Source: a virus
Reading direction: 5' to 3' (one strand)
DNA length: 64,000 nucleotides
Virus record (IMG/VR): IMGVR_UViG_3300009034_000011
A model generated the notes under the pieces. It made no database searches and was not told the DNA's origin. It saw only the letters and a program-made list of their open reading frames with translations. This document shows, in pieces, positions 14,539-29,147 of the stretch; the stretch's first letter is position 1, and each line of letters begins with the position of its first letter. The translations under genes and the position numbers were made by a program.

Positions 14539-14568
14539 TGCTCACCCTCTATTTCACTATAAAATATG

Positions 14569-14654: not shown

Positions 14655-15035
14655 TTAACGTCCTGGTGGTTTCTTCTTAAGCTTCGCTAACTCGTCTCTA
14701 AAACCTTGACTTACTGGTGACAGTCCCGGTATCTTAGCCCTCATATCCTTTCTTATGAAATCAAGAGATGGATCCAACGCCTGATTGGGAAAGTTACGTG
14801 TCTGCCACCACGGGTGTACCTTACCATCACTACCAATATAAGTAATTGTGACAAAATTAGGGTGGCGTATAGCTTGCTCAAGAGCCTTCAGTAACTCCTC
14901 GGAAACTGTCAACTCTCCGATAGCAACACTATCTGTTACCTGCTGCTGTTTCGCATCGTGCAGCGTTGGTCCATCAACTCCACTCCTAGTTGGCTGATCA
15001 GCTGCTAACGACGACCGCTTGTAGTTACCCTGCAT
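14655..15035 (-). CDS. hypothetical protein
   Basis: 126-aa ORF. Confidence 0.4.
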   Translation of the reverse strand: MQGNYKRSSLAADQPTRSGVDGPTLHDAKQQQVTDSVAIGELTVSEELLKALEQAIRHPNFVTITYIGSDGKVHPWWQTRNFPNQALDPSLDFIRKDMRAKIPGLSPVSQGFRDELAKLKKKPPGR

Positions 15036-15038
15036 TTA

Positions 15039-15983
15039 CTACCCCTTCAAGAACTCAACCATTGCATTGATATCGAGGTTCTGAGACAATGCAATGTTCT
15101 CGAAGCCCCAGAAGTTTTCAGAAACAACCCTCCCCTGAAACTCCGTTTCCACCCCAAGGCTTCCCAACACATACATTACGGAACGCTTATCCAATAAAGC
15201 ACCCAGGTAGGATACCCAGCTGTTGCAGCCAACTACTACCCCGGCGTCAAAGATCGCCTGGACCACCTCGGCGACATCCCACTGACCCATCATATTAAAG
15301 ATATTATCGCTTAAGTTACTATCTACAATATCTTTAATATGGAGGTAGTCGGTGTAAGTACCTACCAGGCACACTGGAACACCCTCAAACACAGATATCA
15401 CAGCCCTGTAGAGTTCCATAAAATCTCTAGCTTTGAAGTTCCGCGGTGTACGCAATGAGGTAAACGGCTGAAATATCACAGGGTAATCTTGCTTCTTCTT
15501 GTGGCGGATAAACTCCGACAAAATTATATCTGAAGCTAACTTATTTACTCGAAACTTCCTCATACACTCCTTCAAAAGCCTCTCAGTATACCCGTACCGA
15601 TCCAGCCTCGTAATCTCGCGTTGCACTTGTCCAAGTATGTCCTCGATGTCCGGACCATGATACCTGGTAAGGTACGGAAATCTTTCCCAGTACCTCTCGG
15701 GAACAACAACATCAGGTATATCCTTCAGCTCACAGTGCACCTTCATAGGATGCACCTCTATCACGTTAACATCAACTGGGTCGTCTTCAATACCGTGCGG
15801 TGTTAGTATATACCTAGCAGGAACACCGAAATCGAAGTTAATGAAGAACCTATAAAGCAGATGAGGATAATACCCCGTCAGATAGTAAGTTAAATAGTCA
15901 ATTCTGTTTTCATCTGCTAGCACTGCTAGTTTCGGTAATATAACCGCTGAATCCCCTATACCGTATGGACACTTGATAATCAT
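15039..15983 (-). CDS. glycosyltransferase family 9-like (heptosyltransferase-like) protein
   Basis: 314 aa. The N-terminal IIKCPYGIGDSAVILP resembles the GT9 ILVIRLSSLGDVLLTTP motif. Confidence 0.4.
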   Translation of the reverse strand: MIIKCPYGIGDSAVILPKLAVLADENRIDYLTYYLTGYYPHLLYRFFINFDFGVPARYILTPHGIEDDPVDVNVIEVHPMKVHCELKDIPDVVVPERYWERFPYLTRYHGPDIEDILGQVQREITRLDRYGYTERLLKECMRKFRVNKLASDIILSEFIRHKKKQDYPVIFQPFTSLRTPRNFKARDFMELYRAVISVFEGVPVCLVGTYTDYLHIKDIVDSNLSDNIFNMMGQWDVAEVVQAIFDAGVVVGCNSWVSYLGALLDKRSVMYVLGSLGVETEFQGRVVSENFWGFENIALSQNLDINAMVEFLKG

Positions 15984-16327
15984 CCTCTAAACTCTTCCCC
16001 ATACGCCTCATACTTCTCGAGCCACCTATTTATCCTCTCCCTATCCTTCTTCATCAGCTCTGCCATCCTATCAATCCTAGCCTCAACGAAAGGCTGGGCA
16101 ACAAACCTACTACTACCTTTAACGCAGGGGACGCTGCGCTCAAGTTTATCAGGATGGTTTTTCCAATAATCGAACCTTTCGTTATCATAATGTGGTATAG
16201 CAAGTCTTGGGGCAGTAGCTAGCTCTGCTAACTTATCACCCTGAACTTTATCCATATGCAGTACCCCTAAAAAGTTGGGGTGAGCGAGGAGAATCGAACT
16301 CCCATAAACTGATCCACAGTCAGTCAC
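15980..16327 (-). CDS. hypothetical protein
   Basis: 115-aa ORF. Confidence 0.4.
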   Translation of the reverse strand: MTDCGSVYGSSILLAHPNFLGVLHMDKVQGDKLAELATAPRLAIPHYDNERFDYWKNHPDKLERSVPCVKGSSRFVAQPFVEARIDRMAELMKKDRERINRWLEKYEAYGEEFRG

Positions 16328-16350
16328 TCTACCTTTGAGTTACACCCACC
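16276..16350 (-). tRNA. tRNA-His (anticodon GUG) with encoded G-1
   Basis: Acceptor GUGGGUG/CGCUCAC, extra 5' G pairing with C73, anticodon stem ACUGA/UCAGU, loop CUGUGGA, T-arm GGGAG-UUCGAUU-CUCCU, CCA. Confidence 0.75.
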
Positions 16351-16360
16351 ACCATTATCC

Positions 16361-16666
16361 TTATCCTTTCGAAAGAGGGGATCCTTTATTCTTTTCGCGT
16401 TCAACTCTCGCCACAACTGGTCCAGGCCATATGCGGGGCTGTGCCTCTAGACTCGAACCATACTTGGTCAACGTAGCCTCTATACCTAGAGCCTCACATA
16501 CCTGTTTACTTTCGCAATGTCCATCCACAGCATCCTGCAGTAACTGGCGTTGCTGAGCGACCCAGTTTCCCACACGGATCAGCAACATCACATAGTCCTC
16601 ATGACTTCGAACCTCAGGGCCGTTGAGAATAGCCCGCGCCTTATCGCCTGCTTCCTTAATAGTCAT
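16361..16666 (-). CDS. hypothetical protein
   Basis: 101-aa ORF. Confidence 0.4.
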   Translation of the reverse strand: MTIKEAGDKARAILNGPEVRSHEDYVMLLIRVGNWVAQQRQLLQDAVDGHCESKQVCEALGIEATLTKYGSSLEAQPRIWPGPVVARVEREKNKGSPLSKG

Positions 16667-17177
16667 TATAACTACTCCACACCGTGAAATACTGCATCGG
16701 TGTCCAAGAGGAAATCGCCATCAAACCACTGTGGTGCCATTTCCGCTATCTTTTCAAGTGTCAAGATACCCTTCTTGCTTTCAGGAACGGGCTGACTTAC
16801 TTTTAGTTCTCTTATACGGTCGGCTCCGTCACCGTCACAGTAAATGGCAACTACTCTAGATGCGCCGACGTCACCTAGATGCTTCGCGCGTCGGAGCATC
16901 AAAACTAACGCTCGATAAAACGCTTCATTACAGCTGAGCTTTATTGTAAAGCCTTTAGTCTCGTTAGACATCGTCCTTGTATTCCTCCCACTCGTCCGAC
17001 TTATCTTCCAAGAGCTTGAAAACGAATATGTCCGTTTCGCCCGAGGGATCTTTGACATGAGCCCACGGTCCGTAAGTTCCACCTTCGAGGAAGTCAAAAC
17101 TAACATAAGAACCCTCTGCCCACTCTGGTAACCTTATTTTCCCTATCCTCTGATCTAGCGCCTCCTGCACTGTCATA

Positions 17178-17717
17178 TTAGAACCCCAATCTGTTCCTGA
17201 TATACGGACGGTCGAGGTAGTGACCCGTCTCATCTATCTCCCGGTCGAAAAGCGGGTCGACAATCTTCCCGAATAACTCCCTGCCGTAATTCTTGATTAC
17301 AATCCCTTCTATTCTCAAAGCACCAAATGCGGACTCAATACCCAAAAGATCGAAAAGCTGCCCAAGACCCTTAACAACACCCTCAAACAATATTGGTGGA
17401 GTTGGAATATCCAGTGCCCCGAAAACAACCTGCTTTTCAGAAAGCCCAAGAAAACACTCTTGCTGATAATCCCATATATCTAAACCTACCTCCCATTTGG
17501 GAAGCTGAGTATAAGCTACAGTGTGCTTACGCTTGAGGTTCTCTTTGAAAATAGCATAACCCTCATCCTCTAGTTCTATCAACTTACCATCCAGCTTTTC
17601 TTCCACAACTACAGGCCCGGTAAGAAGCTCATCTATCTCCTCAGAAGTCAAATAACGTTTGCTCCTCCTGGGATACCCTGGAATCTCAATTCGATATATC
17701 TTAGGGTATCTCTTCAT
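17178..17717 (-). CDS. hypothetical protein
   Basis: 179-aa ORF. Confidence 0.4.
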   Translation of the reverse strand: MKRYPKIYRIEIPGYPRRSKRYLTSEEIDELLTGPVVVEEKLDGKLIELEDEGYAIFKENLKRKHTVAYTQLPKWEVGLDIWDYQQECFLGLSEKQVVFGALDIPTPPILFEGVVKGLGQLFDLLGIESAFGALRIEGIVIKNYGRELFGKIVDPLFDREIDETGHYLDRPYIRNRLGF

Positions 17718-17935
17718 ATTCGTACTTCGGTATTATATTCTTAGCTTTCAGTCGCCCAAAAACCTTTTCGGGATGACATATGTGACATCTACGTCGACCA
17801 CAATCAAAAGGCTTTCGTTTAGCTAGTAAATGTCGTTTTTGAAGTAATTGATCATAGTACCGACCGCGGCCGTATACTTGCTTAACCTGTCTAAGTCGTG
17901 ACCGTATAACAGCTTCGGTACGTGCTATCCTTTTC

Positions 17936-18154
17936 TCATGAATGCTTTTGCCTTGGCTCATATCTCCCCTCTGCCTTCAGTCGCCGGAACTTCTCATAAA
18001 TCAACCACCGGATCGTTTCACTTCGCGAAACTGCGCTAATTTTCTTCTTAATGAGGTCTAGTTCCTCAAGCAAAGGTTCCGGAATGACAACGTTAATCGT
18101 TATCACATCAAATTTCGTTTTCGGCCTACCCCTCTTCCCCAACAAGTATATCAC
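17936..18154 (-). CDS. ribbon-helix-helix DNA-binding protein
   Basis: ITINVVIPEPLLEELDLIKKKISAVSRSETIRWLI. Confidence 0.5.
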   Translation of the reverse strand: MIYLLGKRGRPKTKFDVITINVVIPEPLLEELDLIKKKISAVSRSETIRWLIYEKFRRLKAEGRYEPRQKHS

Positions 18155-18179
18155 CCCTGCTCATATTCCCAAATTAGAT

Positions 18180-18255
18180 GGCGTGCCCGGTGAGGGTCGA
18201 ACTCACAACAAACGGATTAGAGGTCCGTTACTCTATCCATTGAGCTACGGGCACG
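18180..18255 (-). tRNA. tRNA-Arg (anticodon UCU)
   Basis: Acceptor GUGCCCG/CGGGCAC, anticodon stem ACGGA/UCCGU, loop CCUCUAA (C33), T-arm GUGAG-UUCGACC-CUCAC, G73, CCA. Confidence 0.7.
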
Positions 18256-18256
18256 T

Positions 18257-18601
18257 TTATAACCCATACTCTACTACTCTAACGCCGGCAGCTTTAGCCT
18301 GAGAAACCATATTATTTGTGCCTCGGGTACGCCTACCTGCAAAAAATGCTAATACCATATCCGGCTTTCCCTCATCAAGCATCCGCTTATTGCGTATAGG
18401 ACCTGCCGCTTTATCGAATAAATCCCAATCTGCATAATAACAGTTCCACCCGATATCAAGCTCGCGAGCTATATCCAGTGCCAAGGAATCTGCTCCTGTG
18501 GCCTCTCCCGCTATGACCTCGTCAGCCCCATACTCTATAATAGCCTTTTTTATAGCTTCTCGATCGCTATATGTACGCGTACCACATACCAAAATACGCA
18601 T
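18257..18601 (-). CDS. SLOG/DUF2493-like Rossmann-fold protein
   Basis: MRILVCGTRTYSD...VIAGEATGADSLA pattern of the YspA/DprA-like SLOG superfamily. Confidence 0.35.
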   Translation of the reverse strand: MRILVCGTRTYSDREAIKKAIIEYGADEVIAGEATGADSLALDIARELDIGWNCYYADWDLFDKAAGPIRNKRMLDEGKPDMVLAFFAGRRTRGTNNMVSQAKAAGVRVVEYGL

Positions 18602-18619
18602 CTATCTCCTCAAATTAAG

Positions 18620-18696
18620 TGGTGTGCCTGGAGAGATTTGAACTCTCAAAACCTACAGATTAGGAATCTGTCGCTCTATCCATTGAGCTACAGGCA
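18620..18696 (-). tRNA. tRNA-Arg (anticodon CCU)
   Basis: Acceptor GUGCCUG/CAGGCAC, anticodon stem ACAGA/UCUGU, loop UUCCUAA, T-arm GAGAG-UUCAAAU-CUCUC, A73, CCA. Confidence 0.7.
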
Positions 18697-18811
18697 CTAT
18701 TGATGCGCCAGGTGGTACTCGAAACCACACCCTCTACTCGGCTTCTAGTGGTGACCGGTATCGCGCCGTTCGCGGTAGAGAACTGCCACTTCGGACTGAC
18801 GCAAACTAGTT

Positions 18812-18900
18812 GGTGGGCGAGGAGAGGATCGAACTCTCATGGCTTTTTACCACCGTCGGATTTTAAGCCCGATGCGTCTACCAATTTCACCACTCGCCCA
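18812..18900 (-). tRNA. tRNA-Leu (anticodon UAA), type II
   Basis: Acceptor GGGCGAG/CUCGCCC, anticodon stem UCGGG/UCCGA, loop CUUAAAA, long variable arm, T-arm GAGAG-UUCGAUC-CUCUC, A73, CCA. Confidence 0.75.
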
Positions 18901-19164
18901 CTCCCTAACAACTAGATAAGCGGCCAAAACTACAAAGCCTCTACAGTTAACATCTCACATGCTACACCACGTTGTTGCTGTAGTTTATCGAGGCAGTCAT
19001 AACCAGCCTTTGCGGCTGCCCTAGATGCGTTGTATAGTAATTGGCCATGCTCGAGCTCTATACTATAATAACTGTCTACATGAGCTATAACCGCTCCTTT
19101 GCACTTAACTGCAAATGTTGTCTGTCTTGGCTTTTTCATTTTGCAAGCTCACCTACTTGAGATT

Positions 19165-19241
19165 TGGCAAGCGCGGTCAGAGTCGAACTGACACCCAACG
19201 GTTTTGGAGACCGTGACTCTAGCCAGTTAAGCTACGCGCTC
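19165..19241 (-). tRNA. tRNA-Trp (anticodon CCA)
   Basis: Acceptor GAGCGCG/CGCGCUU, anticodon stem ACGGU/ACCGU, loop CUCCAAA, T-arm GUCAG-UUCGACU-CUGAC, G73, CCA. Confidence 0.7.
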
Positions 19242-19333
19242 ATCTAATTAAACGGATTTGGATAGTTACGCATTATATTTTCACCTCATTATATTATATG
19301 CGAAGAATTCAAATTTATCGCAAGCTACTTTAT

Positions 19334-19406
19334 TGGAGGCCACGGCAAGGACTTGAACCTTACGTCCAGAGTCTCCTCTAGCTCTACCCCTGAGTCTTAC
19401 GTGACC
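19334..19406 (-). ncRNA. tRNA-like RNA lacking an anticodon loop (acceptor, T-arm and CCA present; anticodon arm replaced by a 6-bp GAGA-tetraloop hairpin)
   Basis: Acceptor GGUCACG/CGUGGCC, T-arm UAAGG-UUCAAGU-CCUUG, discriminator U, encoded CCA, a D-like CUC..GAG stem, and a central CUAGAG-GAGA-CUCUGG hairpin instead of a 7-nt anticodon loop. Confidence 0.45.
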
Positions 19407-19516
19407 AAAAGAGTGATGCGGCCCTACGGGGTGCGTAATCCCGATTCGACGGACTCACATGGACACAGGACCATGATTACACGCAACCTATGCCGCTCCA
19501 TCTTCGGGCCGCATAA
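19407..19516 (-). ncRNA. ~110-nt structured RNA between two tRNA genes (closed by a 9-bp helix AUGCGGCCC/GGGCCGCAU)
   Basis: No ORF. Long-range terminal pairing encloses internal hairpins (CAUGG-UCCUGUG-UCCAUG; GCGUGUAAUC..GAUUACGCAC). The 3' side ends in CUCUUUU. Confidence 0.35.
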
Positions 19517-19593
19517 TGGTGGGGCTGACGAGATTCGAACTCGCGATTGACGGAGTGAAATTCCGACGGCCTAGCCAGCTAGCCCACAGCCCC
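19517..19593 (-). tRNA. tRNA-Glu (anticodon UUC)
   Basis: Acceptor GGGGCUG/CAGCCCC, D GGCU/GGCC, anticodon 4-bp stem CGGA/UCCG, loop AUUUCAC, T-arm GCGAG-UUCGAAU-CUCGU, A73, CCA. Confidence 0.65.
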
Positions 19594-20076: not shown

Positions 20077-21021
20077 CTACATCAGCTTAGTTCCACACTG
20101 ACTGCAGAACTTAGCATTGGACTTTGACTCACGGCCGCAATTCGGACACTCCAACTTAGTTTTCACAGTAACTGGCTTTGCTACCACAGCACCGCTACCG
20201 GTCCGTCCCTGTAATCTTATTATTATTACATGAGATTGGGCCTCTAGCGGGCCAGTTGAGCCATAGCCAAATTGCTGATAAGTTGGAGAACCCTCCACCG
20301 TTACCCCTTCATGCGGAAGTGGCTCAGGAGTTTCTACAAGATTAGCCCCAATACTCTCCGACATCATTGATTTTCTGATATGCGGAGGCGAATGAGACAC
20401 ATTATGGAAACCCTGAACTACACCACCACATGGCTCTTCGACCCCTAGATCTCCGGCAGTATTCTCAAACGATATCTTGTCAGTACCTGAAGTACTTTTC
20501 CAAGTTACCTCAGGGTGCCAAGGACCGGGTGGCCAATGCGGCCACCGTTGGTAGCGATGATAATGGTGATGATGGTAATCATGATGTTCATGATGATGAA
20601 CGTCACGGTAGTGCCGCTCGATCACCTCAGGCTTATGTTTCTCGTGTCGAAACTCCACCCGGACTGAACCATCATCTAAGTTATCACCACGTTGCTCAAT
20701 AACGTCCTGAGTCTTTTGGATAAACCTAAACCTCTGGGTAGCAACGTTACCGTGCATCCAGCCATCCAACTCAACACTGTCATTGGCCCCGAGAATTAAC
20801 TTCTTACCGTCCAGTGCGTCTCTACTATCTACCATAATCGCAACTTGTGCTGGACGTGATTCGCGATTTCTGAGTAAGATACTATACTCGCTACCAAACG
20901 GTAAGGTTACTACTCCGTCAACGTCACGGAGTATGCGGCCATGATGTTTTATCACGACCACGAAGGCGTCTTTATATACCATCACGTAACACTCCTCTCT
21001 TAAACAGCGTCCCGACCACAC
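20077..21021 (-). CDS. His-rich protein with C-terminal zinc ribbon
   Basis: HHHEHHDYHHHHYHRYQRWPHWPPGPWH tract. C-terminal CPNCGRESKSNAKFCSQCG. Confidence 0.45.
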   Translation of the reverse strand: MWSGRCLREECYVMVYKDAFVVVIKHHGRILRDVDGVVTLPFGSEYSILLRNRESRPAQVAIMVDSRDALDGKKLILGANDSVELDGWMHGNVATQRFRFIQKTQDVIEQRGDNLDDGSVRVEFRHEKHKPEVIERHYRDVHHHEHHDYHHHHYHRYQRWPHWPPGPWHPEVTWKSTSGTDKISFENTAGDLGVEEPCGGVVQGFHNVSHSPPHIRKSMMSESIGANLVETPEPLPHEGVTVEGSPTYQQFGYGSTGPLEAQSHVIIIRLQGRTGSGAVVAKPVTVKTKLECPNCGRESKSNAKFCSQCGTKLM

Positions 21022-21094: not shown

Positions 21095-23050
21095 TTACCT
21101 ATCCTTTTGACCAAAACCGCTTAATCCCTCAGGATATCCCGGCTTTTCTGTGGGTTCTGAGGACTCTTCTGCCTCTTCATCCTCAGGAGCTTCAACCTCC
21201 TTTTCGACATTAACTACAACCTGGGGACCTCCTTCATTAAAGATCTTACCCAGGTCAGGGATGAGTTTCGAGACCTGCTCAACTAAGTCACTGGCATCTA
21301 TACCAGTGGCCCCCAGCACCTCTTTAAGTACCGGAAGTGCTGCACCAGCTCCTAAGATGCCCTTAGCTACTCTACCGAAGCTACCTCCGCCGAGTGCCTC
21401 AAGGCCTCCGCCGCCTCCCAGATCGAGTATGCGAATACTTTCAATCTGTTCAGCCGGCTTCATTAACTGTTCAGCAACAGCCGGTAGCTGCTCAATAAGG
21501 GCAATCGTAATGTCTTTACTGATAATCTTCGGATCAATCCGATTCTCAGCCTCGACCATTTTCTCTTTGCCCTCAGCTAGTGCTCTTGCCTTCTCAAGCT
21601 CTGCTGCAGCCAGTAACTTGATAGCATCAGCTTCATGCTGGGCAGCTTCGAGCTGCGCTTCAGCTACTCGAGTGACTTTATAGGCCTCGGCATCAGCTGC
21701 TTTCTCTTGCACGATGAGAGCGGCCTCCGCGTTCTGACTAGCTGCCACGAGAGCAACCTCTTTCTCGCGTCTTGCCTCTTCAACCTCTTTAGCAGTTACA
21801 ACTTTCTCTTCCGCCTCAGCTCTTAAAGCACTGGCCACAAGCTTCAGTTGGTCTGCTTCTTCACGAGCCGTTTCCCTCTCGGCAACAGCTATCCTACTTT
21901 CAGCAGCGGCAACCTCGACAGTCCGCTTCCGCTCTATCTCGGCGGTCTCAACTGCCTGCTCCTGAGTCACTCGAGCAAGTTCAACTGCTTGCTTTCGCTC
22001 GACTTCGGCGGTCTCGATTGCCTTCCCACGCTCGATCTCACGCTGTTTTACAGCTTCTTCCTGCTCGACGCGTGCAGTCTCGATCTCCTTAGTTCTTGCG
22101 ATCTCAGCAGCTTCAACAGCCTTCTCACGCTCGATCTCACGCTGCTTTACAGCTTCCTCCTGGGCAATACGAGCCTGCTCAACAGCCTCCGTCTGCTTCT
22201 CTGATGCTTCCTTGACCGCTTGCTGCTCCTCGAGCCTATTAGTCTCGATCTCACGCAGCTGTAACTGCTCGGCAACGGCTCGGCCTTGCTCAAGCTCGTA
22301 AGATGCTTTCTTTTGCTGGGTCGTTTTCTCTTGAATACCGAGCTCCGCCCGCAATGTAGCATCTTCACGTAGTACTCTGTTCTCTTCCTCGATCTCCTTC
22401 GTACGGGTCTGCTTCGCCTCGACCTCTCCCTTAATGGTCTGAATGGCCGTCGCATCAAACCTGTTGTCCGGGTTCAGTAGAGACAGTTCTGTTTGATCAA
22501 GGTTGGTAATGGAAACGGTCTCTAGAGTAAATCCGTTTTCCTTCAGATCCTCAGTTGAGGCCTCCTGCACCTGATCGGCAAACTCCATCCGCTTCTCATG
22601 CAGTTCCTGCAACTCCATAGTAGCTGCAACACTTCTTAGGGCACCAACTAACTTACCCTCTAGAAGTTCACTAACGCTGCCGGGGGACAGGATTCTGTCT
22701 CCTAAACTAGCAGCTGCTGCGAGCACGTCCTCTTCATTGGGTTGAACTCTTATGAAGAACTCAGCCACAATATCAACTCGAAGACTATCTTTGGTAATAA
22801 GCGCATCCTGCCCCTGCCGTTCAACCTGTAAGTTCATAGTATTTAATGAAATCATCGACGTCTTACAGGTAATGGGATTGATTAGCTTACCTCCAAAGTA
22901 TGCTCGCTTCTTCTTACCACCGGAAACCACTAGTGCGTTATCCGCTGCAACCTTCCTGTAGAATGCCTTATACGCTATTAGAAGGATTATAAAAAGCGCA
23001 AAGACCACTCCAACCAGGATGTAAGTTGTGGTATTGAATATGGAAGCCAT
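21095..23050 (-). CDS. flotillin-like SPFH/band-7 domain protein with long Ala/Glu-rich coiled coil (YqiK-like)
   Basis: N-terminal TM helix then SPFH core (ALITKDSLRVDIVAEFFIRV...). About 300 aa of EA-rich heptad repeats. Confidence 0.65.
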   Translation of the reverse strand: MASIFNTTTYILVGVVFALFIILLIAYKAFYRKVAADNALVVSGGKKKRAYFGGKLINPITCKTSMISLNTMNLQVERQGQDALITKDSLRVDIVAEFFIRVQPNEEDVLAAAASLGDRILSPGSVSELLEGKLVGALRSVAATMELQELHEKRMEFADQVQEASTEDLKENGFTLETVSITNLDQTELSLLNPDNRFDATAIQTIKGEVEAKQTRTKEIEEENRVLREDATLRAELGIQEKTTQQKKASYELEQGRAVAEQLQLREIETNRLEEQQAVKEASEKQTEAVEQARIAQEEAVKQREIEREKAVEAAEIARTKEIETARVEQEEAVKQREIERGKAIETAEVERKQAVELARVTQEQAVETAEIERKRTVEVAAAESRIAVAERETAREEADQLKLVASALRAEAEEKVVTAKEVEEARREKEVALVAASQNAEAALIVQEKAADAEAYKVTRVAEAQLEAAQHEADAIKLLAAAELEKARALAEGKEKMVEAENRIDPKIISKDITIALIEQLPAVAEQLMKPAEQIESIRILDLGGGGGLEALGGGSFGRVAKGILGAGAALPVLKEVLGATGIDASDLVEQVSKLIPDLGKIFNEGGPQVVVNVEKEVEAPEDEEAEESSEPTEKPGYPEGLSGFGQKDR

Positions 23051-23079
23051 CTTATCCTCCTCTCCGATTTACCACTAAA

Positions 23080-23802
23080 CTATAGCCCCTCAAACTTGGC
23101 TACCACAAATATTTGAGTGGCCGGGTCATAGTCCTCTAAAAGCACCTCGTCGCCGTTAACGGGTTCCTCATCACCTTCCTCCACGCGGCATGCCACTTTC
23201 AACGTAGTGTTATCACCCGTATGCACCGCTACCCTCCCGAAAGCAGAGGTCACACGTCCACTGACAACACGAGCCGTCATACCTACTAAGTCTCGACGAG
23301 ATATAGCAGGCTCACTCTCGGGGAAAATCTTGGCTATCCCCATGGCAAAGTATTTTGTACAGAATATACTAGCGACAAAAGCAATCCCCGCGGAAACCGC
23401 AGCTAAGGGGGGAATAAGCCGTAGAATTCTGTTGCCTATAACCCGATTACAGATCAACCCAACAGCACCATACGAAGTAAGCCAGGTCATTATAAGAACC
23501 ATAAGTGGAACCTTCCCGACGTTAAGAAAACCTAGCATACTCACAAAGACACCAGGGCCGTCTGCACCTACATCATTATCAAACTCCACCTCCGAATCTA
23601 CATCCAGGTCGGTATCGATATCTATATCAGAGTCCACATCGATATCTATATCAGAGTCCACATCAACTTCTGTACTCCCACCAAACTCCAAACTAACTCC
23701 GACCACTTGTAAGAAGGCGAAGAGAAACACCAAAAGCAGCGGAGCAAGAAACATGACGTTGTACCAAGCTGACACAAATTCCCAGAAACCCATTGATGTC
23801 AC
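23080..23802 (-). CDS. NfeD-like membrane protein (YqiJ-like) partner of flotillin
   Basis: N-terminal TM segments and an acidic DxD repeat tract. C-terminal OB-fold segment (VVSGRVTSAFGRVAVHTGDNTTLKVACRV...) as in NfeD short homologs encoded next to SPFH genes. Confidence 0.55.
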   Translation of the reverse strand: MTSMGFWEFVSAWYNVMFLAPLLLVFLFAFLQVVGVSLEFGGSTEVDVDSDIDIDVDSDIDIDTDLDVDSEVEFDNDVGADGPGVFVSMLGFLNVGKVPLMVLIMTWLTSYGAVGLICNRVIGNRILRLIPPLAAVSAGIAFVASIFCTKYFAMGIAKIFPESEPAISRRDLVGMTARVVSGRVTSAFGRVAVHTGDNTTLKVACRVEEGDEEPVNGDEVLLEDYDPATQIFVVAKFEGL

Positions 23803-24071
23803 CCCTTTTCAATACCGCCGGGTATATTTACAACACTGGCAACAATCAAGCGCACCCATATAATAGGGTTCCCACACCCATTTAGTCTTTGCCATACACC
23901 ACGCCGTACCAAATATCGGACGCCAGGTCCAGCTCGAAGATTTAGGAAGGTCAATCCGCTCGTATTCACACCTGAAATGAATACAGGGCGTCCCGAACAG
24001 AAACTTCCTCATCCTCAACAACACAATAGGAGGAGATATAGCGGACTACTTAGTCCGCTATATTCCAGTTG

Positions 24072-25781
24072 CTAGACTCGTCCAAGCAGGAACTCACTAA
24101 TCACATTTGGCGTCGCAGTATCAAACCCTACGACATCAAGCATTCCCACGTCAGTAGGATCTGCTATAGAGATATCATTAGCAGTCATACCTACAACAAC
24201 CAACTTAGCCTCTGGATTGATTGTATTACGGTAGCGATCCAAAGCCTGAGATGGATGCTCGTCACCATACCACGTCTCACTATCTGTATAGACGAGAAAT
24301 GCATCATACACCACATCCGAGTTTTTCTTATGCATTTGCTCAGCCCACAAGATTGGGAGAGCGCAGTTAGTTCCACCGAAGTTAAGCCCATCGGTATACC
24401 TTACAAGGTCGTCTAATCTTTGACGCTTGGACATATTGACTTCCACGAAGCGATGACAAAACGCCATAACAGATACCAAAGGCTCAACCTTGTAAGTAAC
24501 CATCGACATTGCACATGCACCCATCCTTGGCGTCATAGCAGGAATGCCAACGATATTACCTCCGTTCATGGAGCCGCTAACATCGAGACCAATGACGATT
24601 CTCTTGTTAGTTGGTTCAACATTCTTAAAAGCCTTGTAGAAGGCGCTATCTAGCGCGTCAACTACATCACCAACAACATTCCACTCGCCACGACCTCGTG
24701 CTCCACGGCCCTGACCGTAAGTCACCATAGCGGCTAGTACACCAAGTGGGTGTACTCTAGCTTTCGCTAAGATTTCCTCGTCAGTTAGCTGATCGCATAC
24801 CCTTTGGATAACCTTAAAGTTACCGTCAACTAGAAGGCCAACCTTGGACATATTGCCAAGGTTCCGTATCATGGCAGTCATCGGCATGCCACGACCCGCC
24901 GTAAGCATTGCTGCCCAAACCTTCTTATCGCTAAGAAACTGGGTTGGAATGCACTCACGAGGCAAGTTATGCTCCCTGATGAGCTTAACTATATCGGCAA
25001 CGGAGGTAGCTGCCTTGGCTTCCTCGAAAGCTCCGATGAACTTTGGCATAACCTCCCAGTGTTCTGCTTTTGCCTTATCAACTACCCAAGCGTACAGAGC
25101 ACCGTGAGGGCTGATATAATATTTCCCCTTCTCCACTGCATCTGCACTTAAGGTATCTGGTACAGAAACTGCCTTATTTGGGTTTGGGTGTGCAAGTCTC
25201 AACACGTCAAAGTGAGACCAGCCATCTCTCGACTGGTACTTAGCTAACTGGTACGCAAGGCCATCTGCATTTCTACCATTGTACCAACTCGCGATAGCAT
25301 CTTTATAACCCCTACCCCAACCCCGGAATGCTTCGGTATAGGCAACGAGGTGGAATAGATGAGTTCCAATACGAGCTATCTTTGGTATAGCTTGAAAAGC
25401 AGCTCTCCTCGTTTCTATATCCTGTAGAGTTGGATGCTTGCCTCCTGCTCCGAGACACATAGCTAAGACAAAGAGGGCGTAATCATTCTTAGGTGCCCTG
25501 CCGGAATCACTTATCTCAACTATCGTGTCAACTACCCTCTTACCGTCTTCTTTAATACAACGGCGGGTAGAATCGCACGCATCCTTGGTCAGTTTTCTTT
25601 CACTTACGTAATAAGTGCCCCCTTCTGTACCAAGGACTAGAAAACGATTCAATAGCATCCAGTCGTCCACCTTCCAGGCAAACCCTCCGGCATTGTTCAT
25701 CTCCATATCTTCACGGCCTGGAATGCGCTCTGTTTGAGGCGTCTTAATTCTAACCCCTTGCGTAAGTAAATGCTTCCTCAT
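24072..25781 (-). CDS. rsr: Ro60 ortholog Rsr (TROVE domain plus C-terminal vWA with MIDAS motif)
   Basis: 569 aa. C-terminal IVIGLDVSGSMNGG MIDAS motif plus downstream T and D. N-terminal ~380 aa helical, TROVE-like. Flanked on its upstream side by Y RNA-like genes. Confidence 0.6.
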   Translation of the reverse strand: MRKHLLTQGVRIKTPQTERIPGREDMEMNNAGGFAWKVDDWMLLNRFLVLGTEGGTYYVSERKLTKDACDSTRRCIKEDGKRVVDTIVEISDSGRAPKNDYALFVLAMCLGAGGKHPTLQDIETRRAAFQAIPKIARIGTHLFHLVAYTEAFRGWGRGYKDAIASWYNGRNADGLAYQLAKYQSRDGWSHFDVLRLAHPNPNKAVSVPDTLSADAVEKGKYYISPHGALYAWVVDKAKAEHWEVMPKFIGAFEEAKAATSVADIVKLIREHNLPRECIPTQFLSDKKVWAAMLTAGRGMPMTAMIRNLGNMSKVGLLVDGNFKVIQRVCDQLTDEEILAKARVHPLGVLAAMVTYGQGRGARGRGEWNVVGDVVDALDSAFYKAFKNVEPTNKRIVIGLDVSGSMNGGNIVGIPAMTPRMGACAMSMVTYKVEPLVSVMAFCHRFVEVNMSKRQRLDDLVRYTDGLNFGGTNCALPILWAEQMHKKNSDVVYDAFLVYTDSETWYGDEHPSQALDRYRNTINPEAKLVVVGMTANDISIADPTDVGMLDVVGFDTATPNVISEFLLGRV

Positions 25782-26902: not shown

Positions 26903-26978
26903 TGGTCGGGGAGACAGGACTCGAACCTGCAATCTCCAGCTCCCAGGGCTGGCCCGCTAAGCCATTGCGTCACTCCCC
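26903..26978 (-). tRNA. tRNA-Pro (anticodon UGG)
   Basis: Acceptor CGGGGAG/CUCCCCG with C1-G72 typical of bacterial Pro, anticodon stem CCAGC/GCUGG, loop CCUGGGA, T-arm GCAGG-UUCGAGU-CCUGU, A73, CCA. Confidence 0.7.
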
Positions 26979-27109
26979 GACAATATATTGGACGGTGAAC
27001 CCCAACTTTTAGTGCGGCTATGGGAGATGGATGTTGCGGTCCACCGTCCGGAGGCGGATTCCGACGAGTTGTGCGGCTATGGGAGATGAATTGTCGGAAT
27101 CCGCCCGAG

Positions 27110-27181
27110 TCATATATGGGCAAGTGGTTGACAGTGGGAGGAGCCAAATTTGCGGTTCGGTAACCCACTGCCTCCGGCCCA
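27110..27181 (-). ncRNA. Y RNA-like unit 11 (mini Y: Ro-binding helix only)
   Basis: 5' UUGGGCCGGAGGCAGUGGGUUACC pairs with 3' CUCCUCCCACUG..GCCCA. It is followed (27000-27110) by a 13-bp hairpin GGCGGAUUCCGAC..GUCGGAAUCCGCC and a duplicated AUCUCCCAUAGCCGCAC motif. Confidence 0.5.
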
Positions 27182-27449
27182 ATTAACATAATCACTCACC
27201 TGCTGGAACTAAAAGACGCTTCATAGGTTCTGAAGGACTTTCCTGGAGTTTACAATCTCCCAAGTATCGGGATACTGAATCGACAAGAGGAACAGCAACT
27301 GCATAAGCGTTTTTTGTCACAGACAGATCAGCACCCGCGGCAGCTTGCTGCAACTTCTTCGCGACCAATACCATCAGTTCCGTTCGTACAGCCGGTGTCA
27401 ACTCAACAACTTCAAGACTAGCCATACCTTTACCTCACGCCGCAATTAA

Positions 27450-27596
27450 ATGCTGGACAAGGTGTCGCAAATGGGACGCTTTCCGACGCTCCACCACTGA
27501 GCTATGCGCCGTGCGGCCGAACCGTTCAGAGGCACAACTGGAATCGAACCAGTGACATCCGGAATTGAATGGTAACCCACCTACTACGGTCCAGCA
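27450..27596 (-). ncRNA. Y RNA-like unit 10 with permuted tRNA-like module
   Basis: 5' CUGGACCGUAGUAGGUGGGUUACC, then T-arm ACUGG-UUCGAUU-CCAGU, a loop-closed acceptor-like hairpin, D-arm GCUC-AGUGGUGGA-GAGC, then the 3' Ro strand CCCAUUUGCGACACCUUGUCCAG. Confidence 0.55.
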
Positions 27597-27609
27597 AGAT
27601 AAAATCGTT

Positions 27610-27730
27610 GGGCTAAAATTGCCAATGGGTGAAATGGTTCCGGGGGTTGGATTCAAACCAACGCGTATCGCCCTCGGGCGGTGCTCTATCAACTGAGCTA
27701 CCCTGGATAACCCATACAGCAGCGGCCCAA
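27610..27730 (-). ncRNA. Y RNA-like unit 9 with embedded near-complete tRNA-like domain (acceptor, D-arm, mini-hairpin, T-arm, CCA) in normal order
   Basis: 5' UUGGGCCGCUGCUGUAUGGGUUAUC, then UCCAGGG-UA-GCUC-AGUUGAUA-GAGC, then CGCC-CGAG-GGCG hairpin in place of the anticodon arm, then GUUGG-UUUGAAU-CCAAC, then CCCCGGA-A-CCA, then 3' Ro strand CCCAUUGGCAAUUUUAGCCCAA. Confidence 0.5.
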
Positions 27731-27746
27731 CGATGCTCTCTTTCAA

Positions 27747-27821
27747 TTTGGCTGTCCTGGTCGGCTTCGAACCGACAACCCCCTGATTAACAGTCAGGTG
27801 CGCTACCAGTTGCGCCACAGG
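27747..27821 (-). tRNA. tRNA-Asn (anticodon GUU), embedded in the Y-RNA array
   Basis: Acceptor UGUCCUG/CAGGACA, D GCGC/GCGC, anticodon stem CCUGA/UCAGG, loop CUGUUAA, T-arm GUCGG-UUCGAAG-CCGAC, G73, CCA. Confidence 0.75.
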
Positions 27822-28084
27822 ACAACAAGTGTGGGTTGATAGTAAATAAAAGATATGTATAAGACAATATCTCCCGCCTATCAACCCACTCCGGGCAAAT
27901 GGCAGATGAGGTCGAGCATGCACACAATGTACATTAAGCTCTACGATTATTACAGTCCGTCGACCGGTGCTTTTTTGACGGTCCACGCGACCGATGTATT
28001 TATCGTTTATACTCGGTCCACATGACCGAGTACGTTTATCTAGGTCCGCCGACCGTGGTTTCATCGTATGGTAATCCTCATCTA

Positions 28085-28240
28085 ACGGCCCGAATAAGAT
28101 GAATGAACGGACAAGGTGCGGAGTGGACCTTTTTATTGAGCTACCACCCCAAGAACATCGAGGTAGGCTGGACACGAACCAGCAACACTCAGCTTGATAA
28201 GCTGATGCTCTATCCGATAACCCACATCCTACGGTCCGTT
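28085..28240 (-). ncRNA. Y RNA-like unit 8 with permuted tRNA-like module
   Basis: 5' CGGACCGUAGGAUGUGGGUUAUC, T-arm GCUGG-UUCGUGU-CCAGC, acceptor-like hairpin CUACC..GGUAG, 3' strand ..CCUUGUCCG. Confidence 0.45.
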
Positions 28241-28244
28241 CAAG

Positions 28245-28385
28245 AAGATATGAATGGGCAAAAGGTGTCAGTGGATGTGTTCGCGCTGAGCCATTCAGCT
28301 TCGGACGCCATAATGACGCCCGACGGGATTCGAACCCGCAACCTCGCCTCCCTAAGAAGATAACCCACAAGACATCGGCCCATTC
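28245..28385 (-). ncRNA. Y RNA-like unit 7 with permuted tRNA-like module
   Basis: 5' UGGGCCGAUGUCUUGUGGGUUAUC, T-arm GCGGG-UUCGAAU-CCCGU, loop-closed acceptor mimic CGGGCGUC-AUUAU-GGCGUCCG, 3' strand CCACUGACACC..GCCCA. Confidence 0.55.
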
Positions 28386-28394
28386 ATGATTAAA

Positions 28395-28522
28395 TGAATG
28401 GACAAAAGGTTGCACGAAGATGTTTGACGCTCTAACCAGTTGAGCTACTACCTTTCGGTAGGGAAGGACTTGAACCTTCCATCGCCTCATTGGAAGTGAG
28501 ATAACCTTCACGCGTCCGGTCC
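28395..28522 (-). ncRNA. Y RNA-like unit 6 with permuted tRNA-like module
   Basis: 5' UGGACCGGACGCGUGAAGGUUAUC, T-arm GGAAGG-UUCAAGU-CCUUCC, acceptor mimic CUACC-GAAA-GGUAG, D-arm GCUC-AACUGGUUA-GAGC, 3' strand CUUCGUG..UGUCCA. Flanked by the CCAUUCAU-GAUUAA-AUGAAUGG inter-unit hairpin. Confidence 0.6.
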
Positions 28523-28534
28523 ATTCATGCTTAT

Positions 28535-28672
28535 CACGATTAAATGAATGGACAAAAGTGTACAAGGAGTTTTTTACGCGCTCTGGCCGCTGAGCTACCC
28601 AGGCATTCGGAGCCTGGGGTCGGGAATCGAACCCGACGACCTCGCCATTAACATTGGATAACCCTCGTACGT
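28535..28672 (-). ncRNA. Y RNA-like unit 5 with permuted tRNA-like module
   Basis: 5' UGGACCGACGUACGAGGGUUAUC, T-arm GUCGGG-UUCGAUU-CCCGAC, acceptor mimic CCCAGGC-UCCGAAU-GCCUGGG, D-arm GCUC-AGCGGCCA-GAGC, 3' strand CCUUGUAC..UGUCCA. Confidence 0.6.
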
Positions 28673-28674
28673 CG

Positions 28675-28769
28675 GTCCATTCATACTTGTTGTCAACTAA
28701 CAGACGGGCAGGTGGTGTGCGAGGTGCACACGTTTTGGTCTGTCGACCAATGTAATGATAACCCTCGCA
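28675..28769 (-). ncRNA. Y RNA-like unit 4 (mini Y, no tRNA-like module)
   Basis: 5' UGGGCCGGAGUGCGAGGGUUAUC pairs with 3' CCUCGCACACCACCUGCCCG. Internal hairpin GGUC-GACA-GACC. Confidence 0.5.
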
Positions 28770-28774
28770 CTCCG

Positions 28775-28963
28775 GCCCATTAGAGATAGCGACCCCGCTG
28801 CAGGTACTATCCCTATATTTGGGGTGGACAAAGAATGCTAATGGAGTTGACTCCCCTTTGGGGAGCTGCCTAACCACTAGGCTATCCGGGCGCGCGACCC
28901 GAGACTCTCGTCCCGGGCCTGAGCCCGGAATAAGATTCGAACTTATGTGATAACCCATCAACT
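28775..28963 (-). ncRNA. Y RNA-like unit 3 (long form with tRNA-like elements)
   Basis: 5' UGGACCGGAGUUGAUGGGUUAUC, weak T-arm AUAAG-UUCGAAU-CUUAU, CCGGGC-UCAG-GCCCGG hairpin, D-arm GCCU-AGUGGUUA-GGC, CUCCCC-AAA-GGGGAG hairpin, 3' strand ..UUGUCCACC. Confidence 0.45.
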
Positions 28964-28965
28964 CC

Positions 28966-29047
28966 GGTCCACCGCCATATTCGAAACGAGCAGGCAAAGA
29001 AGGCGATAATGGGAAGTCAAATGGTAGATAACCCACTATCTCCGGCC
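28966..29047 (-). ncRNA. Y RNA-like unit 2 (mini Y)
   Basis: 5' UGGGCCGGAGAUAGUGGGUUAUC with 3' partner CCCAUUAUCGCC. Confidence 0.5.
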
Positions 29048-29049
29048 CA

Positions 29050-29147
29050 CCCGATAATTGTCGGGGAGGACTTAATGGGCGAGGGTCGAGTGAGGGAACG
29101 TCAATTTCCTGGTTGATAACCCTCACTCTCCGGCCCATCTAATCTCT
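29050..29147 (-). ncRNA. Y RNA-like unit 1 (mini Y), first unit of the array
   Basis: 5' UGGGCCGGAGAGUGAGGGUUAUC, a 23-nt loop, then CCCUCACUCGACCCUCGCCC forming a long bulged helix. Confidence 0.55.

What the first reader, a model, noticed from the sequence alone, without database searches (positions are those of the whole stretch)
21095..23802. Flotillin (SPFH) plus NfeD operon-like pair in a phage, immediately downstream of rsr
A 651-aa SPFH/band-7 protein with an N-terminal TM helix and an ~300-aa EA-rich coiled coil is followed by a 240-aa NfeD-like protein with TM segments, an acidic DxD repeat tract and a C-terminal OB-fold. This reproduces the bacterial yqiJ-yqiK (nfeD-floT) module. 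Such membrane-microdomain scaffolds are unusual in phage genomes. Its co-location with the Ro/Y-RNA locus hints at a membrane-associated function such as superinfection exclusion, membrane remodelling or RNP anchoring.
Basis: partly seen in the sequence, partly recalled or inferred. Interest (0 to 1): 0.55.

Follow-up and report, generated by a model that had tools for sequence, protein, structure and literature searches.

The report
Phage copy of bacterial flotillin operon
A large, tRNA-rich phage genome carries an intact copy of the two-gene bacterial yqiJ–flotillin membrane-scaffold operon, probably captured from a Poribacteria-like host. The pairing is rare in phages, the genes themselves are of an ordinary, well-known kind, and their position next to the Ro (rsr) gene looks incidental.

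Summary

The surrounding window is phage-like: more than 30 tRNAs, Tad6, a gp32-like SSB, PolA-UDG, RNR and HNH. The nearest relatives of both proteins are cellular pairs at 50-62% identity (by method), mostly Candidatus Poribacteria. Synonymous sites are saturated while proteins stay conserved, so the pair is an old, selectively maintained capture.

The pair is rare in phages. It matches no PHROG family, and only one other complete genome among 50,697 records (Sinorhizobium jumbo phage Phosso) carries it, acquired independently.

None of the 86 homologous loci has rsr nearby, so the proposed Ro link is unsupported. The likely role is a flotillin cage at the host membrane; what it does for the phage is unknown. 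I rate it a new member of a known kind, of modest interest.

The parts
23080..23793 (-). yqiJ-like NfeD2 partner gene. 237 aa from the ATG at 23793; the mechanical ORF extends to a GTG at 23802 (240 aa).
   Evidence: ORF. Pfam YqiJ_N 55.6 bits, E 7.2e-15. Public gene call of 237 aa, P0121. AAGGGGTG ribosome-binding site 8 nt before the ATG. hhalign probability 99.7% to homologues that carry YqiJ_N + YqiJ_OB.
23569..23670 (-). Acidic DxD repeat tract of the YqiJ-like protein (residues about 45-78 in 240-aa numbering). Predicted to be disordered.
   Evidence: 45% D/E. pLDDT below 50 at residues 44-80. A D-x-D tract of variable length is present in all 20 aligned homologues.
23095..23277 (-). C-terminal NfeD-type OB-fold barrel of the YqiJ-like protein (residues 176-236).
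23051..23079 (-). 29-nt spacer between the two genes, containing the GGAGAGGAGG ribosome-binding site of the flotillin gene.
   Evidence: Read directly from the sequence. No terminator-like site was found in the spacer.
21095..23050 (-). Flotillin (SPFH2-type) gene, 651 aa.
   Evidence: ORF. Band_7 60.5 bits and Flot 78.2 bits. Eukaryotic flotillin-1 chains 9l3g and 9bq2 at E about 6e-11. 772 homologues, the best cellular ones at about 50-57% identity.
22961..23026 (-). N-terminal membrane anchor of the flotillin (residues about 9-30), followed by a basic stretch (KAFYRK...GGKKKR).
   Evidence: Kyte-Doolittle 19-residue window maximum 2.73. AF2 helix 3-32. Sequence.
22472..22945 (-). SPFH / Band_7 domain (residues 36-193).
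   Evidence: Pfam PF01145, E 2.8e-16. The densest run of invariant columns in the 28-sequence alignment falls here.
21572..22453 (-). EA-rich helical hairpin (residues 200-493). It includes an extra repeat of about 33 aa (EAVKQREIER occurs twice) compared with the closest homologues.
   Evidence: 42% E+A and no proline in 201-500. AF2 helices 200-355 and 371-493 with pLDDT 70-86. Insertion seen in the alignment.
21302..21646 (-). C-terminal Flot domain (residues 469-583), followed by an acidic, proline/glycine-containing tail to residue 651.
   Evidence: Pfam PF15975, E 7.1e-22. Tail composition.
24036..24063 (-). Perfect 12-bp hairpin (ATATAGCGGACT-AAGT-AGTCCGCTATAT) 9 nt after the rsr stop codon. 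It marks a boundary between rsr and the pair. This is context, not part of the module.
   Evidence: Sequence. Present in both the MFE and centroid folds; the intergenic region has a z-score of -3.1.
24072..25781 (-). rsr (Ro60 orthologue), the upstream neighbour. This is context, not part of the module.
   Evidence: NCBIfam Rsr E 2.6e-157. TROVE + vWA_Ro60. PHROG 850.

Best explanation
This is a complete NfeD2(YqiJ)-flotillin (SPFH2) operon of bacterial origin, carried as an accessory gene pair by a large tRNA-rich phage.

Shown:
- Both proteins have every sequence and fold feature of the cellular family.
- They sit in the canonical order and spacing.
- They cluster with cellular pairs, mostly from Candidatus Poribacteria and related uncultured bacteria.
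- They have been kept intact over long divergence.

Inferred from the family:
- In the infected cell the flotillin inserts through its N-terminal helix, with the SPFH domain on the cytoplasmic face.
- It oligomerises through the EA-rich helical hairpin and Flot domain into a dome- or cage-like microdomain scaffold.
- The three-TM YqiJ-like partner docks to it through its cytoplasmic OB domain.

Inferred, with less certainty: the phage uses this to supplement or replace the host's own flotillin system. That would keep the cytoplasmic membrane organised and intact during a long, resource-heavy infection, as a host-physiology (auxiliary) function rather than a virion or RNA-related one. The position beside rsr reflects placement in the phage's accessory, tRNA-rich region and not a functional link.

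The confidence of 0.55 is for the whole statement including the inferred role. For the identity alone (a YqiJ/NfeD2-flotillin operon in a phage-like genome) I would put it at about 0.9.
For: Identity:
- Band_7 + Flot and YqiJ_N above the Pfam cut-offs.
- hhalign probability 99.7% to YqiJ_N + YqiJ_OB proteins.
- Membrane helices, EA-rich hairpin and acidic tract.

Operon:
- 29-nt spacer with a ribosome-binding site.
- A yqiJ homologue lies directly upstream on the same strand in 82 of 86 homologous loci.
- The conserved NfeD-SPFH2 operon and co-evolution of the two genes are described in PMC2636767. yqiJ upstream of yqiK in E. coli is described in PMC10434171.

Bacterial origin:
- The best named homologues and all 80 best genome loci are Candidatus Poribacteria or uncultured MAGs at 45-51% identity.
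- The closest pairs (56% and 61% by BLASTP; 55-58% and about 51-54% by tblastn) lie on cellular contigs, next to rhamnosidase and URO-D or a two-component system.
- In the neighbour-joining tree the window's flotillin and two metagenomic relatives fall inside that clade.

Maintained by selection:
- pN 0.18-0.31 with pS at or above 0.75, which is saturated.
- By construction, the phage protein carries the shared residue at every column that is invariant across the 28-sequence alignment.

Phage context:
- 30 tRNAs on one strand plus a tmRNA-like hit.
- Tad6, ClpP, a gp32-like SSB, PolA-UDG, RNR, DnaB, primase, RecA and HNH.
- The downstream neighbour 20077-21021 has homologues in jumbo phages XacN1, Xoo-sp13, CM1 and RAS14.
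- GC and GC skew are continuous across the pair.

Recurrence: jumbo phage Phosso independently carries YqiJ(N+OB) + flotillin, followed by XpaC-like and TelA membrane-stress genes.

Cage architecture of SPFH and flotillin complexes: PMC12624060.
Against: - There is no functional evidence of any kind for the phage copy.
- Even in E. coli, deleting yqiK, or all four SPFH genes together, gave no growth defect (PMC10434171). 'Membrane maintenance' is therefore a weak, family-level inference.
- No virion gene lies in the window, so the phage assignment rests on replication, nucleotide-metabolism, anti-defence and tRNA content.
- The AF2 model of the SPFH domain is of low confidence (pLDDT below 50).
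- No close relative of this phage was found that could show whether the pair is conserved in a phage lineage.
- It is unclear whether contig L002, which carries the most similar retrievable pair, is viral.
Confidence: 0.55

Rival explanations
1. The pair acts at the membrane against competitors or host immunity. It could block DNA entry of superinfecting phages. It could also stabilise or repair the membrane against membrane-disrupting abortive-infection effectors, buying time for the phage.
For: The window encodes at least one counter-defence gene, Tad6 (E 1.8e-41), so the phage invests in host-immunity evasion. The proteins are membrane-embedded. Phosso places its pair next to TelA and XpaC-like stress genes.
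Against: Neither protein matches any PADLOC model or any PHROG family. The pair is about 20 kb from Tad6. No known superinfection-exclusion or anti-defence protein belongs to this family, to my knowledge. Nothing here tests this.
Confidence: 0.15
2. The pair modulates a host membrane protease such as FtsH, or another membrane complex, as HflK/C and QmcA-YbbJ do. This would stabilise phage proteins or set the timing of lysis.
For: SPFH1 (YbbK/QmcA with YbbJ) and HflK/C multimers interact with FtsH (PMC2636767; PMC10434171). The phage also carries its own ClpP, which suggests an interest in proteolysis.
Against: The protein is of the flotillin (SPFH2) type and not HflK/C or stomatin: Flot domain present, with NCBIfam returning only FloT. 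The sources read here report no FtsH interaction for YqiK-type proteins. The partner has no ClpP-like protease domain.
Confidence: 0.1
3. The pair is functionally coupled to Rsr/Y-RNA, for example by anchoring the Ro RNP or RNA-repair machinery at the membrane.
For: Adjacency only: rsr ends about 270 nt upstream on the same strand. Y-RNA-like elements lie further upstream.
Against: None of 86 loci with a homologous pair has rsr nearby. The closest cellular rsr sits among unrelated housekeeping genes. A perfect 12-bp hairpin follows the rsr stop codon. Phosso's pair is flanked by TelA and XpaC-like genes, not rsr. The region is a mosaic of tRNAs, HNH and small accessory ORFs.
Confidence: 0.03
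4. The pair is not really phage DNA (an assembly chimera or mis-binned host fragment), or it is a recently acquired passenger with no function.
For: Both proteins have clearly cellular affinities. The window contains no virion gene. GC of the flotillin gene (0.506) is slightly above the window mean of 0.46.
Against: The pair is flanked on both sides by phage-type genes on the same strand, with continuous negative GC skew. The nearest cellular pair is about 56% (flotillin) and 61% (YqiJ-like) identical by BLASTP, with saturated synonymous sites. It is therefore neither a fragment of a sampled host nor a recent transfer. Both ORFs are intact, and the phage sequence agrees at every column that is invariant in the alignment.
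Confidence: 0.05
5. The 651-aa coiled-coil protein is a structural fibre or tail protein.
For: A long alpha-helical region.
Against: Band_7 and Flot domains, an N-terminal membrane helix and an NfeD partner are all present. It matches no PHROG structural family.
Confidence: 0.01

Closest known systems
Bacterial YqiJ-YqiK / YuaF-FloT (NfeD2-SPFH2) flotillin operons
   Same: The gene order is the same, nfeD-like first and flotillin second, closely spaced. The flotillin has the N-terminal anchor, SPFH domain, EA-rich coiled coil and Flot domain. The partner has three TM helices and a C-terminal OB barrel (PMC2636767).
   Different: It is encoded in a phage-like genome. It is only about 50-62% identical (by method) to the nearest cellular pairs. 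It scores far below the FloT equivalog cut-off (70.5 bits against 700). The YqiJ_OB and NfeD HMMs do not fire directly. The flotillin has an extra EA repeat of about 33 aa.
Candidatus Poribacteria flotillin pairs (for example loci L008-L087) and the uncultured-bacterium pairs on L003-L006
   Same: These are the closest sequence relatives of both proteins, with the same operon layout. Their GC (0.42-0.50) is similar to the window's 0.46.
   Different: Their neighbours are cellular genes (rhamnosidase, URO-D, two-component systems). None of them has rsr or tRNA arrays nearby.
Sinorhizobium jumbo phage Phosso (PV764938) genes 491-492
   Same: It is the only other complete phage genome found with YqiJ (N + OB) immediately upstream of a Band_7 + Flot flotillin. 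It is also a very large phage, 469 kb.
   Different: Identity is only 34% (flotillin) and 26% (YqiJ), so the acquisition was independent. In Phosso the pair is followed by XpaC-like and TelA genes, not the zinc-ribbon protein found here.
Other phage SPFH/flotillin-family genes (crAss-like csAssE-Sib, Vibrio phage KIT04, T4-like 44RR/Aeh1/RB43, Xanthomonas phage X1)
   Same: SPFH-domain proteins have been annotated sporadically in large phages without functional study.
   Different: None has a recognisable YqiJ/NfeD partner by HMM. csAssE-Sib has an unclassified 164-aa TM protein upstream. KIT04 lacks the Flot domain. Identity to the window protein is 25% or less.
Eukaryotic flotillin-1/2 cage (PDB 9bq2, 9l3g)
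   Same: These are the only solved structures detectable by sequence (E about 6e-11 over residues 37-313). They provide the model for dome-shaped oligomers on the cytoplasmic leaflet (PMC12624060).
   Different: The eukaryotic proteins have no TM helix and no NfeD partner. The oligomeric state of the phage protein is unknown.

Membership tests
Prokaryotic flotillin (SPFH2; FloT/YqiK type) | SPFH / Band_7 domain | tested here: met
   PF01145, 60.5 bits against a cut-off of 23.6, residues 36-193.
Prokaryotic flotillin (SPFH2; FloT/YqiK type) | C-terminal Flot (flotillin) domain | tested here: met
   PF15975, 78.2 bits against a cut-off of 27, residues 469-583, covering profile positions 1-123 of 124.
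Prokaryotic flotillin (SPFH2; FloT/YqiK type) | N-terminal membrane anchor with the SPFH domain facing the cytoplasm | tested here: inconclusive
   A hydrophobic helix is present (Kyte-Doolittle 2.73; helix 3-32), followed by a basic stretch. The orientation is inferred from the positive-inside rule and was not tested.
Prokaryotic flotillin (SPFH2; FloT/YqiK type) | Long EA-rich coiled-coil region | tested here: met
   42% E+A and no proline in residues 201-500. Helices 200-355 and 371-493.
Prokaryotic flotillin (SPFH2; FloT/YqiK type) | Operon with an NfeD2-type gene | tested here: met
   29-nt spacer on the same strand. The same layout occurs in 82 of 86 homologous loci.
Prokaryotic flotillin (SPFH2; FloT/YqiK type) | Equivalog of B. 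subtilis FloT (NCBIfam NF058507) | tested here: not met
   70.5 bits against a cut-off of 700. It is a family member but not an equivalog.
Prokaryotic flotillin (SPFH2; FloT/YqiK type) | Oligomeric cage and punctate membrane foci | not testable with these tools
   This needs microscopy or cryo-EM. The monomer model of the SPFH domain is of low confidence.
YqiJ / NfeD2 partner proteins | YqiJ N-terminal membrane domain | tested here: met
   PF21001, 55.6 bits against a cut-off of 23. Three TM helices in the model.
YqiJ / NfeD2 partner proteins | Direct HMM match to YqiJ_OB (PF07290) or NfeD (PF01957) | tested here: not met
   No hit even at E <= 10.
YqiJ / NfeD2 partner proteins | C-terminal NfeD-type OB-fold barrel | tested here: met
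YqiJ / NfeD2 partner proteins | Physical binding of the OB domain to the flotillin | not testable with these tools
   No complex prediction or experiment was available.
Tailed (jumbo-type) phage genome | Virion and packaging genes (major capsid, portal, terminase) | not tested
   None was found among the ORFs scanned in this window, and only 64 kb was available. The phage assignment rests on the tRNA array, Tad6, gp32-like SSB, HNH, PolA-UDG and homologues in jumbo phages.
Known anti-phage defence systems (PADLOC) | Match to any defence-system protein model | tested here: not met
   No PADLOC family for either protein or for four neighbouring proteins.

The most novel reading that the evidence does not exclude
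The phage-encoded flotillin/NfeD cage is a dedicated infection device and not a spare copy of a host housekeeping system. One version is a membrane-stabilising counter-measure to membrane-rupturing abortive-infection effectors. Another is a scaffold that organises a membrane-associated phage process such as entry-site sealing, assembly or lysis timing. On this reading, large phages (this one and Phosso, with crAss-like csAssE-Sib possibly a third) have each captured flotillin genes independently for that purpose.
Probability: 0.1. Interest if true: 0.65.

Novelty: new member of a known kind. Interest (0 to 1): 0.3.

Why it matters
Bacterial flotillin-NfeD operons are widespread, but their physiological role is poorly defined. 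Even the quadruple SPFH mutant of E. coli grows normally (PMC10434171). A phage that has kept an intact, diverged copy under purifying selection, together with an independent capture by a second jumbo phage, suggests the module gives a benefit strong enough to be selected during infection. Infection could therefore be a tractable setting in which to find a phenotype for these proteins. The Poribacteria-like affinity of the pair also gives a host lead for an otherwise unplaceable large phage. Beyond that, the finding adds an accessory gene to a phage's inventory. It does not reveal a new kind of system.

Tried and rejected
Searches for relatives of this phage or pair that found nothing:
- IMG/VR scans with the flotillin, the YqiJ-like protein, a flotillin alignment, Rsr and a nearby ORF.
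- The neighbour 20077-21021 gave one IMG/VR contig (L088), which shares only that gene.
- No DNA-level match in the phage collection.

Contexts that could not be retrieved: the JGI-derived closest proteins P0001, P0002, P0121, P0193 and P0194 are not on record. The 86.8-kb source contig and the 70%-identical relative therefore went unexamined.

Other dead ends:
- L002, the most similar retrievable pair, shares nothing else with the window. Its other ORFs have no Pfam or phage matches, so I cannot tell whether it is viral.
- The AF2 model of the flotillin was too poor in the SPFH domain (mean pLDDT 58) to justify a fold search, so none was run.
- No sigma-70-like promoter or recurring 10-mer motif was found in the 278-nt rsr-yqiJ intergenic region. 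Whether the pair has its own promoter is unresolved.

Readings considered and rejected:
- Tail-fibre reading: domain hits argue against it.
- Defence-system reading: no PADLOC hit.
- En-bloc capture of rsr together with the pair: no synteny anywhere.
- The short 'phage' records OR851120 and OR845901 (1.5-2.8 kb, unannotated) that match YqiJ/YqiK are discounted as probable enterobacterial fragments. This is inferred from their length and their 59-63% identity to Phosso/YqiK-type sequences.
Full report
**Observation**

The 651-aa protein matches Pfam Band_7 (residues 36-193, E 2.8e-16) and Flot (residues 469-583, E 7.1e-22). The 240-aa protein matches YqiJ_N (E 7.2e-15). The upstream gene is a full-length Rsr (TROVE + vWA_Ro60; NCBIfam Rsr E 2.6e-157).

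- The flotillin has a strongly hydrophobic N-terminus (Kyte-Doolittle 2.73).
- Residues 201-500 are 42% Glu+Ala with no proline.
- The partner has a 45% Asp/Glu tract, TEVDVDSDIDIDVDSDIDIDTDLDVDSEVEFDNDV.

These E-values and a 651-codon ORF are far beyond chance.

Three details need correcting.
- In the direction of transcription the NfeD-like gene is first.
- Its likely start is the ATG at 23793 (237 aa). The GTG at 23802 lies inside the AAGGGGTG ribosome-binding site, and the public gene call is 237 aa.
- The NfeD (PF01957) and YqiJ_OB (PF07290) HMMs do not fire, even at E <= 10.

**The partner protein**

An AlphaFold2 model built from 20 homologues (mean pLDDT 79) shows the following:
- three TM helices (13-41, 100-122, 132-159);
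- a disordered acidic loop (44-80);
- a five-strand C-terminal barrel (176-236) with pLDDT above 90.

A profile of the window's clade aligns over nearly its full length with homologues that do carry YqiJ_N + YqiJ_OB (hhalign probability 99.7%, E 1e-26). The D-x-D tract is a family feature of variable length. The protein is therefore a diverged YqiJ/NfeD2.

**The flotillin**

Beyond the Pfam hits, the only solved structures detectable by sequence are eukaryotic flotillin-1 chains (E about 6e-11). NCBIfam returns only FloT, far below the equivalog cut-off (70.5 bits against 700).

The AF2 model is poor in the SPFH domain. It does give two confident long helices, 200-355 and 371-493. Compared with its closest relatives, the protein has an extra EA repeat of about 33 residues.

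**Operon**

The two genes are 29 nt apart, with a GGAGAGGAGG ribosome-binding site before the flotillin. Among 86 fetched loci that encode a flotillin homologue, 85 also encode a YqiJ homologue, and in 82 it lies directly upstream on the same strand. This is the conserved NfeD2-SPFH2 operon described by Hinderhofer et al. 2009 (PMC2636767) and noted for E. coli yqiJ-yqiK (PMC10434171).

**Genomic context**

All genes in the window run on the minus strand, with uniformly negative GC skew. The window holds:
- 30 ARAGORN tRNAs plus further tRNA-like and tmRNA-like hits;
- a Tad6 Thoeris inhibitor and ClpP;
- an HNH endonuclease;
- a PolA fused to UDG, class I RNR, DnaB, primase, RecA and a QueC fusion;
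- a gp32-like SSB and a NusG-like protein;
- nucleotide-metabolism genes.

The gene just downstream of the flotillin (20077-21021) has homologues in jumbo phages XacN1, Xoo-sp13, CM1 and RAS14. No virion gene lies in the window, so 'phage' is well supported but not proven from these 64 kb alone. There is no DNA-level match to any of the 50,697 phage records.

**Origin**

The flotillin's best hits after itself are two metagenomic proteins at 68-70% identity, then cellular proteins at about 48-57%. All of the named ones are Candidatus Poribacteria. All 80 best loci in a scan of 185,579 species genomes are Poribacteria or uncultured MAGs. That scan used patterns from an alignment rich in such sequences, so it is not independent evidence.

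The closest retrievable cellular pairs sit beside rhamnosidase and URO-D genes or a two-component system. By BLASTP they are 56% (flotillin) and 58-61% (YqiJ-like) identical. By tblastn against the fetched loci the figures are 55-58% and about 51-54%.

In neighbour-joining trees the window's flotillin, with P0002 and P0003, is sister to a Poribacteria-containing branch. The YqiJ tree is congruent at this resolution.

Between the window and these relatives, nonsynonymous differences are 0.18-0.31 per site while synonymous sites are saturated (pS at or above 0.75). The capture is therefore old and the genes have been kept under purifying selection.

The closest retrievable cellular Rsr (60%) comes from the same assembly series as the closest cellular pairs, but from an unrelated neighbourhood. 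This fits both genes having come from a similar host lineage separately.

**Rarity in phages**

- Neither protein matches any of 38,880 PHROG families.
- The flotillin query finds four of 50,697 phage records, and the YqiJ-like query finds none.
- The one clear parallel is Sinorhizobium jumbo phage Phosso (469 kb). There a hypothetical protein with YqiJ_N + YqiJ_OB precedes a Band_7 + Flot protein, followed by XpaC-like and TelA genes. At 34% and 26% identity this is an independent acquisition.
- A crAss-like phage has a flotillin preceded by an unclassified TM protein. Vibrio phage KIT04 has a Band_7-only 'flotillin family' protein.
- Generic SPFH proteins have been listed in T4-like and other large phages since 2006 without study.
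- I found no paper that discusses a phage NfeD-flotillin operon.

**Relation to rsr**

None of the 86 homologous loci has an rsr homologue in its flanks. rsr is followed 9 nt after its stop codon by a perfect 12-bp hairpin and then about 240 nt of structured spacer. No consensus promoter or recurring motif was found there. The adjacency is most simply explained by both being accessory genes in the phage's tRNA-rich plastic region.

**Mechanism**

Shown: membership in the family, and long-term maintenance of both genes.

Inferred from the family: the flotillin is anchored by its N-terminal helix with the SPFH domain in the cytoplasm. It oligomerises into a dome-like scaffold, as solved for other SPFH complexes (PMC12624060). 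The YqiJ-like protein docks to it through its OB domain.

Inferred with less confidence: the phage uses this to maintain membrane organisation and integrity during infection.

The rivals are superinfection exclusion or anti-abortive-infection activity, protease modulation, coupling to Ro, and passenger gene or chimera. They are listed with their tests in the rival-explanations section. None can be excluded experimentally here, but the Ro link and the chimera are disfavoured by the data.

**Verdict**

The identification is correct. The pair is an uncommon cargo for a phage, but it is a canonical member of a well-known operon family. The hint of a functional connection to Ro/Y-RNA is not supported. 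I rate it a new member of a known kind, of modest interest.

Noticed in passing
window 27450-29053 (-): Upstream of rsr lies a series of sub-threshold YrlA (Y-RNA-like, RF02553) hits at 27482-27561, 28252-28382, 28395-28524 and 28546-28679 (27-33 bits against a gathering score of 69). They are interleaved with tRNA-like hits (27638-27707, 28159-28231) and odd ceN72-family hits. This looks like a tandem array of diverged Y-RNA or tRNA-like genes. The 567-aa 'ORF' at 27435-29138 that overlaps them is almost certainly spurious.
   Followed up: partly
window 295-906 (-): A 203-aa protein matches Pfam Tad6, a type I Thoeris inhibitor (E 1.8e-41). It is a probable anti-defence gene.
   Followed up: no
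window 24036-24063 (-): A perfect 12-bp hairpin (ATATAGCGGACT-AAGT-AGTCCGCTATAT) starts 9 nt after the rsr stop codon and has no T-run after it. The whole 281-nt region folded (rsr stop codon to the yqiJ start) folds better than shuffled sequence (z -3.1). It could be a terminator, a processing site or a small RNA.
   Followed up: partly
window 1-19593, 26903-28231 (-): There are 30 tRNA genes, all on the minus strand and interspersed with small ORFs, plus a short tmRNA-family hit at 11951-12046 (60.8 bits). This tRNA complement is typical of jumbo phages.
   Followed up: no
window 20077-21021 (-): The gene immediately downstream of the flotillin encodes a 314-aa protein. It has a conserved N-terminal domain, a His-rich middle (HHHEHHDYHHHHYH) and a C-terminal zinc ribbon. 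Homologues occur in jumbo phages XacN1, Xoo-sp13, CM1 and RAS14 and in one IMG/VR contig. Its function is unknown, and its real start is probably the Met at residue 14.
   Followed up: partly
window 3251-3877 (-); 17178-17717 (-); 18257-18601 (-): The tRNA region contains a phage-encoded ClpP protease (E 4.6e-27), a truncated-looking RNA ligase domain protein (E 5.7e-10) and a YspA/SLOG-family protein.
   Followed up: no
window 49291-51783 (-); 40835-42307 (-); 35560-37746 (-); 38268-39287 and 43066-44139 (-): There is a family A DNA polymerase with an N-terminal uracil-DNA-glycosylase domain. There is also a glutamine amidotransferase-QueC fusion, two radical-SAM proteins and two GHMP-kinase paralogues. 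Together with the GTP cyclohydrolase at 54199-55014, these suggest a deazaguanine-type DNA modification pathway.
   Followed up: no
L001 (Sinorhizobium phage Phosso PV764938) 5287-9467: Phosso's YqiJ + flotillin pair is followed directly by an XpaC-like protein (PF10112, E 1.3e-22) and TelA (E 4.5e-93). Together they form a four-gene membrane-stress-like block in a 469-kb phage. The YqiJ gene is annotated only as hypothetical.
   Followed up: partly
L002 (Logan SRR31655997 contig) 2478-7307: On the 7.5-kb contig with the most similar retrievable pair, the flotillin is followed by a run of paralogous unknown proteins that share a C-terminal '...LPELL...R..A..RL..L' motif, plus a PfkB kinase. 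They have no Pfam or phage matches.
   Followed up: partly
L092 and L004-L006 (ENA ERZ247946xx assemblies): The closest retrievable cellular homologue of the phage Rsr (60%) and the closest cellular yqiJ-flotillin pairs (about 51-58%) come from the same series of metagenome assemblies. This is a possible pointer to the host lineage and environment.
   Followed up: no
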